NCBI GenBank assembly: GCA_001781125.1
Contig: MFKT01000021.1
Location: 5,178 to 69,177 of the forward strand
Direction: 5' to 3'
Source of the DNA: Candidatus Kaiserbacteria bacterium RIFCSPHIGHO2_01_FULL_53_29
GTDB lineage: Bacteria > Patescibacteriota > Minisyncoccia > Phycocordibacterales > UBA2100
DNA: 64,000 bases
The stretch's first letter is position 1. Each line of letters starts with the position of its first letter. The notes below the pieces were generated by a model. The model had not been told where the DNA came from and searched no databases. It saw only the letters and a list, made by a program, of their open reading frames with translations. Positions 1,496 through 1,812 of this stretch are shown piece after piece. A program made the translations under genes and the position numbers.

Positions 1496-1660
1496 TTGTA
1501 GGTGCGGGAAGAGGGAACTCCCTGACAAATTCGTGGCAAGGCAAGCCGATCCCCCTTCTCATGAGGTCTTGTGAATCACGCAAAAGTGTGGTAGAAAACG
1601 AGCCCTCAGAGAGGGAAGACATAGAGACAAGATGAGGAAACATGAATAAACTATTGTCAA

Positions 1661-1791
1661 CCCCATTAGAAATAGCCCGCCCCAAGGGCCCTTCGGGCGC
1701 GCAAGCCCCGTTAGAGGCAAAGCGCAACATTGTCAGTACGCGAATAACGAAGCCTCTAACGGGGCAAGTGCGGGCGCGATTTCTAACGGGG
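1661..1791. mobile_element. MITE-like element, family A, copy 1 (131 bp)
   Basis: Terminal inverted repeats CCCCATTAGAAATAGCC ... GCGATTTCTAACGGGG. Direct 4-bp duplication TCAA at 1657-1660 and 1792-1795. Internal nested inverted pair GCCCCGTTAGAGG/CCTCTAACGGGGC. Lies just 5' of the signal peptide of the large surface protein. Confidence 0.6.
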
Positions 1792-1812
1792 TCAATCTCG
1801 GTATCGCGTGCT

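What the first reader, a model, noticed from the sequence alone, without database searches (positions are those of the whole stretch)
1657..1795. Family A copy 1 carries a nested inverted pair and is read through in-frame into the giant surface protein
A1 is 131 bp, versus 112-115 bp for A2 and A3. It contains an extra internal inverted pair GCCCCGTTAGAGG...CCTCTAACGGGGC resembling the core of the terminal repeat, suggesting a nested or duplicated half-element. The ORF from ATG 1642 traverses the entire element without a stop and joins the signal peptide that begins around TTG 1813. If ATG 1642 is used, the element encodes a 57-aa N-terminal extension ahead of the signal peptide.
Basis: seen in the sequence. 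Interest (0 to 1): 0.55.

Follow-up and report, generated by a model that had tools for sequence, protein, structure and literature searches.

The report
Nested mobile hairpin inside signal peptide
Two copies of a tiny mobile DNA hairpin, one inside the other, sit in frame within the secretion-signal part of a giant surface-protein gene. The same 13-base-ended element occurs in many bacterial phyla, is often translated as part of proteins, and often sits exactly on start codons that it rebuilds.

Summary
A1 is 131 bp (1661-1791), against 115 and 112 bp for A2 and A3. It holds an inner inverted pair, and the ORF from ATG 1642 reads through it without a stop.

The interpretation needs correcting. 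A1 is two nested insertions of a non-autonomous hairpin element. The outer one has termini CCCCATTAGAAAT/ATTTCTAACGGGG and a TCAA duplication. The inner one (1706-1764) has termini CCCCGTTAGAGGC/GCCTCTAACGGGG and its own CAAG duplication.

An orthologous contig (L201) has a single TCAA and no element, and encodes MNKLLSISSSRILAAFLVVVLVY. So the element does not precede the signal peptide. It splits the signal peptide's n-region after codon 6, adding 45 in-frame codons (72 + 63 nt).

A2 and A3 sit exactly on start codons (N|TGAA). The element's terminal G plus TG rebuilds a GTG.

The family has a 13-nt terminal repeat and a 4-bp (sometimes 5-bp) duplication. It occurs in at least 118 genome loci across Patescibacteria, Desulfobacterota, Planctomycetota, Omnitrophota and others. 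It is enriched at start codons (17% against 1.5%, p about 1e-12). It is translated in frame inside PGK, NadA, BipA, an epimerase and a UvrD-like helicase, like Rickettsia RPEs.

The mobilising enzyme is unknown. I found no literature or Rfam record.

The parts
1634..1644 (+). Shine-Dalgarno-like GAGGA (1634-1638) and the ATG start codon (1642-1644) of the giant surface-protein gene
   Evidence: Read from the sequence. The ortholog L201 conserves ...AGAAACATGAATAAA... and starts its protein here. Gene callers use this ATG.
1657..1660 (+). Left copy of the target-site duplication TCAA of the outer element
   Evidence: Direct repeat with 1792-1795. L201 has a single TCAA at this site.
1661..1791 (+). 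A1: composite family-A element (outer element carrying a nested inner element), 131 nt
   Evidence: Absent from the orthologous site in L201.
1661..1673 (+). Outer left terminal repeat CCCCATTAGAAAT (one G-to-A change from the family consensus)
1702..1705 (+). Left copy of the inner element's target duplication CAAG, at the apex of the outer hairpin
   Evidence: Direct repeat with 1765-1768. L055 has CTTG at the same place.
1706..1764 (+). Inner nested element, 59 nt, with termini CCCCGTTAGAGGC / GCCTCTAACGGGG
   Evidence: folds alone at -26.2 kcal/mol. The same terminus type occurs as a free-standing element inside a PGK gene (L064 2525-2592).
1765..1768 (+). Right copy of the inner target duplication CAAG
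1779..1791 (+). Outer right terminal repeat ATTTCTAACGGGG
1792..1795 (+). Right copy of the target-site duplication TCAA
1795..1875 (+). Remainder of the Sec-type signal peptide (ISVSRALAAFLVVVLVYSPLSPIVSYA; predicted cleavage before QT)
   Evidence: Translation. Aligns with the ortholog's N-terminus. Cleavage site inferred from the n-h-c / AXA rule.
1642..5988 (+). Giant secreted/surface protein gene (HYR, DUF11, PG_binding_1 domains), 1448 codons including the 45 element-derived codons
6635..6757 (+). A2 with its TGAA duplications (element 6639-6753). The ancestral TTG start is 6634-6636 and the rebuilt GTG start is 6753-6755, for the GT2 glycosyltransferase gene.
   Evidence: Virtual excision restores GAAGGCGGGA-TTG-AAC-CTC.
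22458..22577 (-). A3 with its TTCA (= TGAA on the gene strand) duplications (element 22462-22573). The ancestral ATG is 22576-22578 and the rebuilt GTG is 22460-22462, for the HAD/PMM-like phosphatase gene.
   Evidence: The excised start MKCPHAVIFDLD matches the paralog's MNCPKTVMFDLD.

Best explanation
A1 is two nested insertions of a small, non-autonomous mobile hairpin element ('family A': 13-nt terminal inverted repeats CCCCGTTAGAAAT, a 4-bp duplication of a YNNR target, variable interior).

Shown:
- The outer element inserted at TCAA, six codons into the gene for a giant secreted HYR/DUF11 protein.
- A second, shorter element of the same family later inserted at CAAG in the apex of the first.
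- Both steps added a multiple of three bases (72 and 63 nt) with no stop codon in the reading frame PLEI...FLTG.
- The gene still starts at ATG 1642.

Inferred:
- The gene now encodes a signal peptide whose n-region is lengthened by 45 mostly basic residues.
- The h-region and the SYA|QT cleavage site are untouched, so the mature protein should be unchanged and the insertion tolerated.

The read-through is best read as survivorship, not design. The family inserts widely, and copies persist where the host gene stays expressible. That means in frame in tolerant coding segments, exactly at N|TG start codons (the terminal G, or A in a variant, rebuilds GTG or ATG, as in A2 and A3), or in leaders.

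Unknown: the enzyme that moves it acts in trans. Either a DDE transposase making a 4-bp staggered cut, or an orientation-specific (HUH-like or site-specific) integrase, would fit.
For: Insertion at A1:
- The orthologous contig L201 has ...ATGAATAAATTATTGTCAATCTC... with a single TCAA and no element. Its protein P0009 starts MNKLLSISSSRILAAFLVVVLVYSPLFPIFTYAQT.
- Virtual excision of A1 gives MNKLLSISVSRALAAFLVVVLVYSPLSPIVSYAQT.

Nesting:
- The inner pair has its own CAAG duplication.
- The same outer-plus-inner composite, with a TCAA outer duplication, sits at an unrelated locus in L055.
- It is also translated in frame in a UvrD-like fragment, P0123.
- The inner terminus type occurs alone in L064.

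Mobility of the family:
- 73 of 124 copies have perfect 4-bp direct repeats, and a few have 5-bp repeats.
- Two filled-versus-empty ortholog comparisons exist between L071 and the window, at the purQ-like and purE starts.

Translation through elements:
- All bona fide mid-gene copies found are in frame and stop-free: BipA, NadA, PGK and an epimerase, each with its Pfam domain continuous across the insert.
- N-terminal read-throughs occur in L026, L043, L078 and L084, the last in a prepilin-like leader.

Start codons:
- 16 of 94 copies against 1.5% of control sites, p = 9e-13.
- A2 and A3 restore a TTG or ATG start on excision.
Against: - There is no expression data. Translation from ATG 1642 and secretion with a roughly 56-residue n-region are inferences.
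- A1 being in frame and stop-free is not improbable on its own. About 10% of family copies would be so in this phase.
- The strong hairpin (-67 to -69 kcal/mol) begins 19 nt after the ATG and could depress translation.
- No autonomous element or transposase with these termini was found.
- About 35-40% of copies lack a perfect duplication.
- In the Desulfobacterota subfamily the flanking tetranucleotide has a fixed orientation relative to the interior (22 to 0). A simple symmetric cut-and-paste model does not predict this.
Confidence: 0.85

Rival explanations
1. The gene now starts downstream of the element (TTG 1813 or a non-canonical codon near 1795), and the element is an untranslated 5' leader hairpin.
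For: TTG 1813 is in frame and is followed by the hydrophobic core. A very stable hairpin lies just after ATG 1642.
Against: - The ortholog starts at the ATG 1642 equivalent with MNKLLS.
- A GAGGA Shine-Dalgarno precedes ATG 1642, and none precedes TTG 1813.
- A TTG 1813 product (MAAFLVVV...) would lack the basic n-region that Sec signal peptides need.
- The frame is kept open across 135 inserted bases in two separate steps.
- Other family copies are clearly translated inside conserved enzymes.
Confidence: 0.08
2. The insertion has inactivated or crippled the gene. The open frame is a coincidence of a recent event in GC-rich sequence.
For: About 10% of family copies would be in frame and open here. 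39% of shuffled A1 interiors are stop-free.
Against: - Two successive insertions both kept the frame.
- The 1,448-codon ORF is intact and identical on 8 contigs from several assemblies.
- The family shows strong survivorship for expressible sites.
Confidence: 0.12
3. Family A is not a DDE-type MITE. It is a REP/REPIN- or IS200/IS605-like hairpin moved as single-stranded DNA by a Y1 (HUH) transposase, or by a site-specific recombinase. It would integrate in one orientation next to a tetranucleotide that the element also carries, so the 'duplication' would be target plus element copy.
For: - Orientation coupling of TAAA/TTTA(C) to the interior is 22 to 0.
- The flanking tetranucleotide is the same within a subfamily: mostly TTTA in the Desulfobacterota subfamily, and TCAA in both composites for which DNA is held (A1 and L055).
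- 29-nt copies that are only a hairpin still carry flanking repeats (L090 7741).
- Nested insertions sit in hairpin apices.
- The window encodes two RAYT-like Y1_Tnp genes, each flanked by hairpins.
Against: - Those Y1 genes are flanked by different hairpins (ACCTTAGAGGCGTCGCCTCTAAGGT and ACGATGAGATGACATCTCATCGT), which occur nowhere else in the window.
- None of the 80 closest metagenomic relatives is flanked by the family-A motif.
- REP sequences are lineage-specific, whereas this 13-mer is invariant across phyla.
- The outer positions of the target are palindromic (T..A or C..G), as expected for a two-fold symmetric enzyme on duplex DNA.
- One subfamily in one genome shows both TGAA and TGGA flanks (L104).
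Confidence: 0.3
4. The elements are invertible promoter switches (invertons) for surface-structure genes. The inverted repeats would be recombinase sites rather than transposon ends.
For: Inverted repeats flank about 100 bp directly upstream of surface-protein, glycosyltransferase and sugar-phosphatase genes. A1 and L055 differ in the relative orientation of the inner segment.
Against: - Target duplications and empty orthologous sites show insertion.
- Copies lie inside PGK, NadA and BipA reading frames.
- 29-nt copies leave no room for a promoter.
- No sigma-70-like promoter was found in A1-A3.
Confidence: 0.03
5. The elements are copies of a structured non-coding RNA gene or cis-regulatory RNA.
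For: Strongly negative folding z-scores. The Desulfobacterota subfamily has conserved stems with variable-length hairpin tips.
Against: - No Rfam family matches, even at permissive thresholds.
- Interiors are unrelated among Patescibacteria copies, and there is no inverted-repeat extension beyond 13 nt.
- Both strands fold equally well, as expected for any inverted repeat.
- Copies inside genes keep the reading frame.
Confidence: 0.03

Closest known systems
Rickettsia palindromic elements (RPE)
   Same: Palindromic repeats of about 100-150 bp that insert in frame into unrelated protein-coding genes and are translated as extra peptide segments without destroying the protein (review PMC10969869). 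Here the hosts are PGK, NadA, BipA, an epimerase, a UvrD-like helicase, a prepilin-like leader and the A1 signal peptide.
   Different: As I recall, RPEs are confined to Rickettsia and close relatives and are conserved along their whole length within each family. Family A shares only a 13-nt terminus and a 4-bp duplication, spans several phyla, ranges from 29 to about 135 nt, and also targets start codons. No sequence comparison with RPE consensus sequences was possible here.
Correia elements (CREE/NEMIS) of Neisseria and other bacterial MITEs (ERIC, BOX, RUP, MITEAba12)
   Same: Small, non-coding, with terminal inverted repeats and a target duplication. They form long RNA hairpins, lie next to gene starts, nest into each other, and can affect expression (PMC10969869).
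   Different: Correia elements have 26-bp repeats and a TA duplication (from memory), conserved interiors with promoters, and a single-genus range. No promoter-like site was found in A1-A3. Rebuilding of a start codon has not, to my knowledge, been described for them.
piggyBac superfamily / IS1380 family DDE transposons
   Same: Terminal repeats begin with CCC, and the target duplication is 4 bp with T at the first position and A at the last (TTAA; rare variants TAAA, TCAA, TATG). IS1380 is the prokaryotic relative (PMC10813416). The piggyBac terminus CCCTAGAAAGATA (from memory) loosely resembles CCCCGTTAGAAAT.
   Different: The target here is YNNR with free inner bases; TTAA was seen in 1 of 94 copies. 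No transposase of this kind was found near or within any copy. The resemblance is a lead, not a test.
REP/REPIN elements with RAYT (Y1 HUH) transposases; IS200/IS605 target tetranucleotides
   Same: Hairpin-defined repeats with a fixed adjacent tetranucleotide and orientation-specific behaviour. The window encodes two RAYT-like genes bracketed by hairpins.
   Different: Family A shows a variable flanking duplication and empty-site evidence of insertion inside genes. Its motif is not lineage-specific. The RAYT-like genes carry other hairpins.

Membership tests
MITE (non-autonomous DNA transposon) | Small size and no coding capacity for a transposase | tested here: met
   29 to about 135 nt, with no ORF of transposase size.
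MITE (non-autonomous DNA transposon) | Terminal inverted repeats | tested here: met
   13-nt perfect repeat CCCCGTTAGAAAT/ATTTCTAACGGGG. Complementarity falls to background at position 14.
MITE (non-autonomous DNA transposon) | Target-site duplication and empty orthologous sites | tested here: met
   Perfect 4-bp direct repeats in 73 of 124 copies, and some 5-bp repeats. Empty sites in L201 for A1 and in the window for two L071 copies.
MITE (non-autonomous DNA transposon) | Multiple dispersed copies per genome | tested here: met
   Four copies in this 64-kb window. Several loci per MAG, and up to 5 copies per 8 kb.
MITE (non-autonomous DNA transposon) | A cognate autonomous element with the same termini | tested here: inconclusive
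   None was found in about 0.94 Mb of flanking sequence from 118 loci, or in the window. Whole genomes could not be scanned.
Rickettsia palindromic elements | In-frame insertion into ORFs with translation of the repeat | tested here: met
   Pfam domains are continuous across inserts in NadA, PGK, an epimerase and BipA. A1 also meets this.
Rickettsia palindromic elements | Sequence similarity to an RPE family consensus; Rickettsia host | not tested
   No RPE sequences were available in the tools. The hosts here are Patescibacteria and other phyla, so membership is not claimed.
Correia / CREE | 26-bp Correia terminal repeat and TA duplication | tested here: not met
   Termini and duplications differ. 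The Correia features are recalled from memory.
REP/REPIN-RAYT system | The RAYT gene is flanked by the same repeat that is dispersed in the genome | tested here: not met
   The window's two Y1_Tnp genes are flanked by other hairpins that occur only there. None of the 80 relatives carries the family-A motif.
piggyBac / IS1380-derived element | CCC-initial terminal repeats and a 4-bp duplication | tested here: met
   Family features taken from PMC10813416.
piggyBac / IS1380-derived element | TTAA target and a cognate DDE transposase | tested here: not met
   TTAA in 1 of 94 copies (table). No such transposase was found. Its presence elsewhere in the genomes is not testable here.
Any Rfam RNA family | Covariance-model match | tested here: not met
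   No hit at gathering score in the window. Only chance-level hits at E up to 10.
Inverton (invertible promoter) | Both orientations at one locus; an internal promoter | tested here: inconclusive
   No promoter-like site in A1-A3. Read-level orientation data are not available.

The most novel reading that the evidence does not exclude
Family A is an undescribed, cross-phylum class of hairpin mobile element with three unusual properties.

1. It integrates in a fixed orientation beside a matching tetranucleotide.
2. It homes to N|TG start codons and rebuilds them from its own terminal G or A. Often it also supplies an in-frame internal ATG, and in some Patescibacteria copies a leaderless-promoter-like TAAAAT-N6-ATG.
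3. It is routinely translated inside proteins.

On this reading it would be a portable translation-start or leader cassette, moved by a not-yet-identified enzyme (HUH/ssDNA-type or IS1380/piggyBac-like).
Probability: 0.35. Interest if true: 0.85.

Novelty: new variant of a known kind. Interest (0 to 1): 0.7.

Why it matters
For this gene, the result fixes the true start (ATG 1642). It also shows that the odd 57-residue 'extension' is a split signal peptide carrying 45 transposon-derived residues.

More broadly, one 13-base signature marks a repeat family present from Patescibacteria to Desulfobacterota and Planctomycetota. This family has several consequences:
- It silently adds peptides to housekeeping enzymes, as RPEs do in Rickettsia.
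- It lengthens secretion leaders.
- It replaces ATG starts by GTG.
- It creates spurious N-terminal extensions in gene calls. The GT2 and HAD genes here are called from in-element ATGs.

It therefore affects start-site annotation and protein families in thousands of MAGs. It offers natural examples of insertion-tolerant sites. It also points to an unidentified transposition enzyme with an unusually conserved end sequence.

Tried and rejected
1. Rfam, both at gathering score and at permissive thresholds on A1 and on a Desulfobacterota copy, gave nothing. No tRNA or tmRNA was found.
2. integron attC sites were considered. They were rejected because the order of the GTT/AAC cores is opposite, there is no cassette array, and copies lie within genes.
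3. I searched for an autonomous element, with no candidate found:
   - pairs of termini 0.4-6 kb apart with matching duplications (only pairs of separate small copies);
   - proteins shared among the 118 loci (only ABC ATPases and IF3);
   - Pfam on ORFs next to dense nests of copies (no transposase).
4. RAYT-like Y1 transposases as mobilisers. 80 metagenomic relatives all have their own flanking hairpins (apex AGGCGWCGCCT), and none has the family-A motif.
5. The viral contig collection gave 0 matches.
6. Literature searches for the motif, its peptide translations, and MITEs in CPR returned nothing relevant.
7. An internal sigma-70 promoter in A1-A3 was not found.
8. A link between the Desulfobacterota subfamily and downstream Shine-Dalgarno sites is weak: 6 of 25 against 1 of 25. 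I do not rely on it.
9. The protein-representative search with the 45-aa insert gave two low-complexity false hits (P0121, P0122) and one true hit (P0123). The contig for P0123 could not be fetched.

Full report
**1. The observation**

A1 runs from CCCC at 1661 to GGGG at 1791 (131 nt). A2 is 6639-6753 (115 nt) and A3 is 22462-22573 (112 nt). The exact 11-mer TTCTAACGGGG occurs five times in the window, plus three one-mismatch copies, all in these elements. About 0.03 exact copies would be expected by chance (my arithmetic).

A1 contains the inner pair CCCCGTTAGAGGC (1706-1718) and GCCTCTAACGGGG (1752-1764), identical to the terminal repeat at 10 of 13 positions. ORF 1642-5988 reads through without a stop. 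As RNA, A1 folds at -69 kcal/mol (z = -6.9); A2 and A3 give z = -5.5 and -4.0.

An alignment of the three copies shows that only the termini are shared. The interiors are unrelated.

**2.

Each copy is flanked by a 4-bp direct repeat: TCAA for A1 (1657-60 and 1792-95), TGAA for A2, and TTCA for A3. The inner pair of A1 has its own repeat, CAAG (1702-05 and 1765-68).

Removing each element plus one repeat copy restores a sensible gene start.
- A1 gives ATG AAT AAA CTA TTG TCA ATC TCG GTA TCG CGT, which translates to MNKLLSISVSRALAAFLVVVLVYSPLSPIVSYA|QT. This is a textbook Sec signal peptide.
- A2 gives GAAGGCGGGA-TTG-AAC-CTC, a Shine-Dalgarno sequence plus a TTG start for a GT2 glycosyltransferase.
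- A3 (minus strand) gives ATG AAA TGC CCC, translating to MKCPHAVIFDLD. This matches the adjacent paralog's MNCPKTVMFDLD.

**3. Direct proof for A1**

I searched with the reconstructed N-terminus and found P0009. It is 69% identical and starts MNKLLSISSSRILAAFLVVVLVYSPLFPIFTYAQT. Its contig L201 aligns with the window on both sides of A1. It reads ...GAAACATGAATAAATTATTGTCAATCTCTTCG..., with one TCAA and no element.

A1 is therefore a 135-bp insertion (131 nt plus 4 nt) after codon 6. The signal peptide does not begin near TTG 1813; it is split. ATG 1642 keeps its GAGGA Shine-Dalgarno sequence, whereas TTG 1813 has none and would give a leader with no basic n-region. Gene callers use ATG 1642, and the 1448-aa product is identical on 8 contigs.

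**4. Nesting**

The inner element (59 nt) sits at the apex of the outer hairpin. The outer element alone would be 68 nt (-36 kcal/mol); the inner alone folds at -26 kcal/mol.

Outer plus duplication is 72 nt and inner plus duplication is 63 nt. Both are multiples of three, and both are stop-free in the frame PLEI...FLTG.

Three further observations show the composite and its parts are mobile units.
- A Ca. Kaiserbacteria contig (L055 1348-1480) carries the same composite at an unrelated site. The outer sequence is similar, the inner element lies at the same apex with CTTG, and the outer duplication is TCAA.
- A UvrD-like helicase fragment (P0123) contains the composite translated in the same frame...SPLEVARPEGPSGAQAPLEA...PLTGQARAR.
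- The inner terminus type occurs alone inside a PGK gene (L064).

**5. The family**

They span many Patescibacteria classes, Desulfobacterota, Planctomycetota, Omnitrophota, Elusimicrobiota and others. There were no matches in viral contigs.

Across these copies:
- The inverted repeat is exactly 13 nt, and complementarity drops to background at position 14.
- 73 of 124 copies have a perfect 4-bp flanking repeat, and a few have 5 bp.
- The duplication is YNNR, with T at 83% of first positions and A at 87% of last positions.
- Sizes range from a bare 29-nt hairpin (L090 7741, duplication CTTG) up to about 135 nt. Tandem and nested copies are common.
- Interiors are unrelated among Patescibacteria copies but about 95% conserved in a Desulfobacterota subfamily.

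The window itself belongs to Patescibacteria. It is syntenic at about 70% identity with MAG H41-bin036_1 (L071), and its GC content is 51-58%.

**6. Start codons**

A2 and A3 are typical of a class inserted at N|TGNN. The TG of the start codon is duplicated, and the element's terminal G makes GTG. A variant with TCCC...GGGA termini makes ATG.

With a strict test, 16 of 94 copies sit on such starts against 1.5% of control sites carrying the same tetranucleotide (p = 9e-13). The strict test required an ORF of at least 80 aa and an upstream in-frame stop within 45 nt. For TGAA/TTCA the figure is 13 of 27.

Two ortholog comparisons confirm the pattern. In L071 the purQ-like and purE genes carry elements at A|TGAA and A|TGAG, while the window has the empty sites ATGAAAAAACCACACGTC and ATGAAACCACTCGTC.

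Gene-facing ends more often contain an in-frame ATG (14 of 23) than the opposite ends (6 of 23). One Patescibacteria subfamily (copies in L011, L023, L078, L104) reads TAAAAT-N6-ATG GAG AAA...ATT TCT AAC GGG GTG, which looks like a leaderless promoter. This is suggestive only. No sigma-70-like promoter is found in A1-A3.

**7. Translation through elements**

The terminal repeat is open in two of three frames (PVRN...ISNG and PLEI...FLTG) and closed in the third (TAG/TAA).

Every bona fide mid-gene copy I found is in frame and stop-free:
- BipA/TypA: an 11-aa insert, SPVRNAISNGA.
- NadA: 40 aa.
- PGK: 24 aa.
- An NAD-dependent epimerase: 23 aa.

In each case the Pfam domain match continues on both sides of the insert.

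N-terminal read-throughs occur in L026, L043, L078 and L084. The last lies in a prepilin-like leader...ARFLTG|FTLIELL, in the same frame as A1.

This is the behaviour described for Rickettsia palindromic elements (PMC10969869). For A1 alone, being in frame and open has a prior of about 0.1. The argument therefore rests on the family pattern plus the two frame-preserving steps.

**8. How A1 most likely works**

Shown:
- insertion, nesting and frame preservation;
- use of the ancestral start by orthologs.

Inferred:
- translation from ATG 1642;
- an n-region lengthened by 45 residues, with roughly eight basic and two acidic residues;
- an unchanged h-region and cleavage site, hence an unchanged mature protein.

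A signal peptide is a forgiving landing place because it is removed after export. The hairpin begins 19 nt after the ATG and may lower translation.

**9. Mechanism of movement (unresolved)**

For a DDE cut-and-paste MITE:
- perfect terminal inverted repeats;
- variable duplications of 4-5 bp;
- palindromic outer target positions;
- a loose resemblance to piggyBac/IS1380 features, namely CCC termini and a 4-bp T..A duplication (PMC10813416).

Against it, or for an orientation-specific mechanism:
- In the Desulfobacterota subfamily the flank is TAAA/TAAA in 22 of 29 copies once they are oriented by their interior, and never the reverse complement.
- Hairpin-only copies are mobile.
- Nested copies sit in hairpin apices.

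The window encodes two RAYT-like Y1 transposases (14067-14792 and 34051-34728), each bracketed by its own hairpins. Those hairpins differ from family A and are not dispersed in the window. None of 80 metagenomic relatives has the family-A motif. No transposase with family-A termini was found.

**10. Novelty**

There is no Rfam family. No open-access paper contains the motif or its peptide signatures, and nothing relevant appears on MITEs in CPR.

I classify family A as a new variant of a known kind: a MITE/RPE-like element. It is distinguished by a cross-phylum invariant 13-mer, rebuilding of start codons, and a possible orientation-specific integration.

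Noticed in passing
window 14033-14837: A RAYT-like Y1 (IS200-like, PF01797) transposase gene (14067-14792, minus strand) is bracketed by near-identical 25-nt hairpins, ACCTTAGAGGCGTCGCCTCTAAGGT. The hairpin stem shares TTAGAGGC with the inner element of A1. These hairpins occur nowhere else in the window.
   Followed up: partly
window 34014-34753: A second RAYT-like Y1 transposase gene (34051-34728), 46% identical to the first, is bracketed by a different hairpin, ACGATGAGATGACATCTCATCGT. 80 metagenomic relatives show the same gene-between-two-hairpins layout, with apex AGGCGWCGCCT and lineage-specific stems.
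   Followed up: partly
window 20395-21051: A 39-nt inverted repeat (79% complementary; each arm contains GACGGCCGTC) brackets a 192-aa ORF (20433-21011). The ORF has a PaaX central Cas2-like domain (PF20803). It may be another small mobile or regulated cassette.
   Followed up: no
window 6696-6755 and 22460-22519: Gene callers start the GT2 and HAD genes at ATGs inside elements A2 and A3 (425 and 273 aa). This gives N-terminal extensions ending ...RPISNGV. In A2 the ORF from the ancestral TTG ends at a TGA that overlaps this ATG (ATGA at 6696-6699), a layout that could couple translation.
   Followed up: partly
L084 5496-5626: A family-A element is read in frame inside a prepilin-like leader. 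The element's last codons (..FLTG) supply the glycine directly before FTLIELL. The reconstructed pre-insertion sequence (MFRESSFTLIELL) lacks that glycine.
   Followed up: no
L038 4585-4990; L062 2239-2437; L104 338-493; L118 5356-6880: Family-A copies occur as tandem arrays that share one TGAA or CGAA between neighbours, and in dense nests of up to 5 copies in 1.6 kb.
   Followed up: partly
window 8075-8114 and 55101-55140: A 40-nt stretch is repeated at 93% identity (CTGCGGCAGGAATTATTCGAAATTGTACTAGCCGGGTATG), 47 kb apart. A weaker third copy lies near 61850.
   Followed up: no
window 32-1495, 1642-5988, 8504-13602: The window holds a cluster of predicted secreted or surface proteins: a protein with a CSLREA motif (no Pfam hit), the HYR/DUF11 giant protein, a subtilase, a CAP-domain protein, and a 758-aa collagen-triple-helix protein with long GXY arrays.
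   Followed up: no
L063, L065, L083, L106: Four family-A loci from different genomes carry an infC (IF3) gene within the 8-kb neighbourhood. In L063 the element lies about 200 nt upstream of the infC ORF. This could be coincidence.
   Followed up: no
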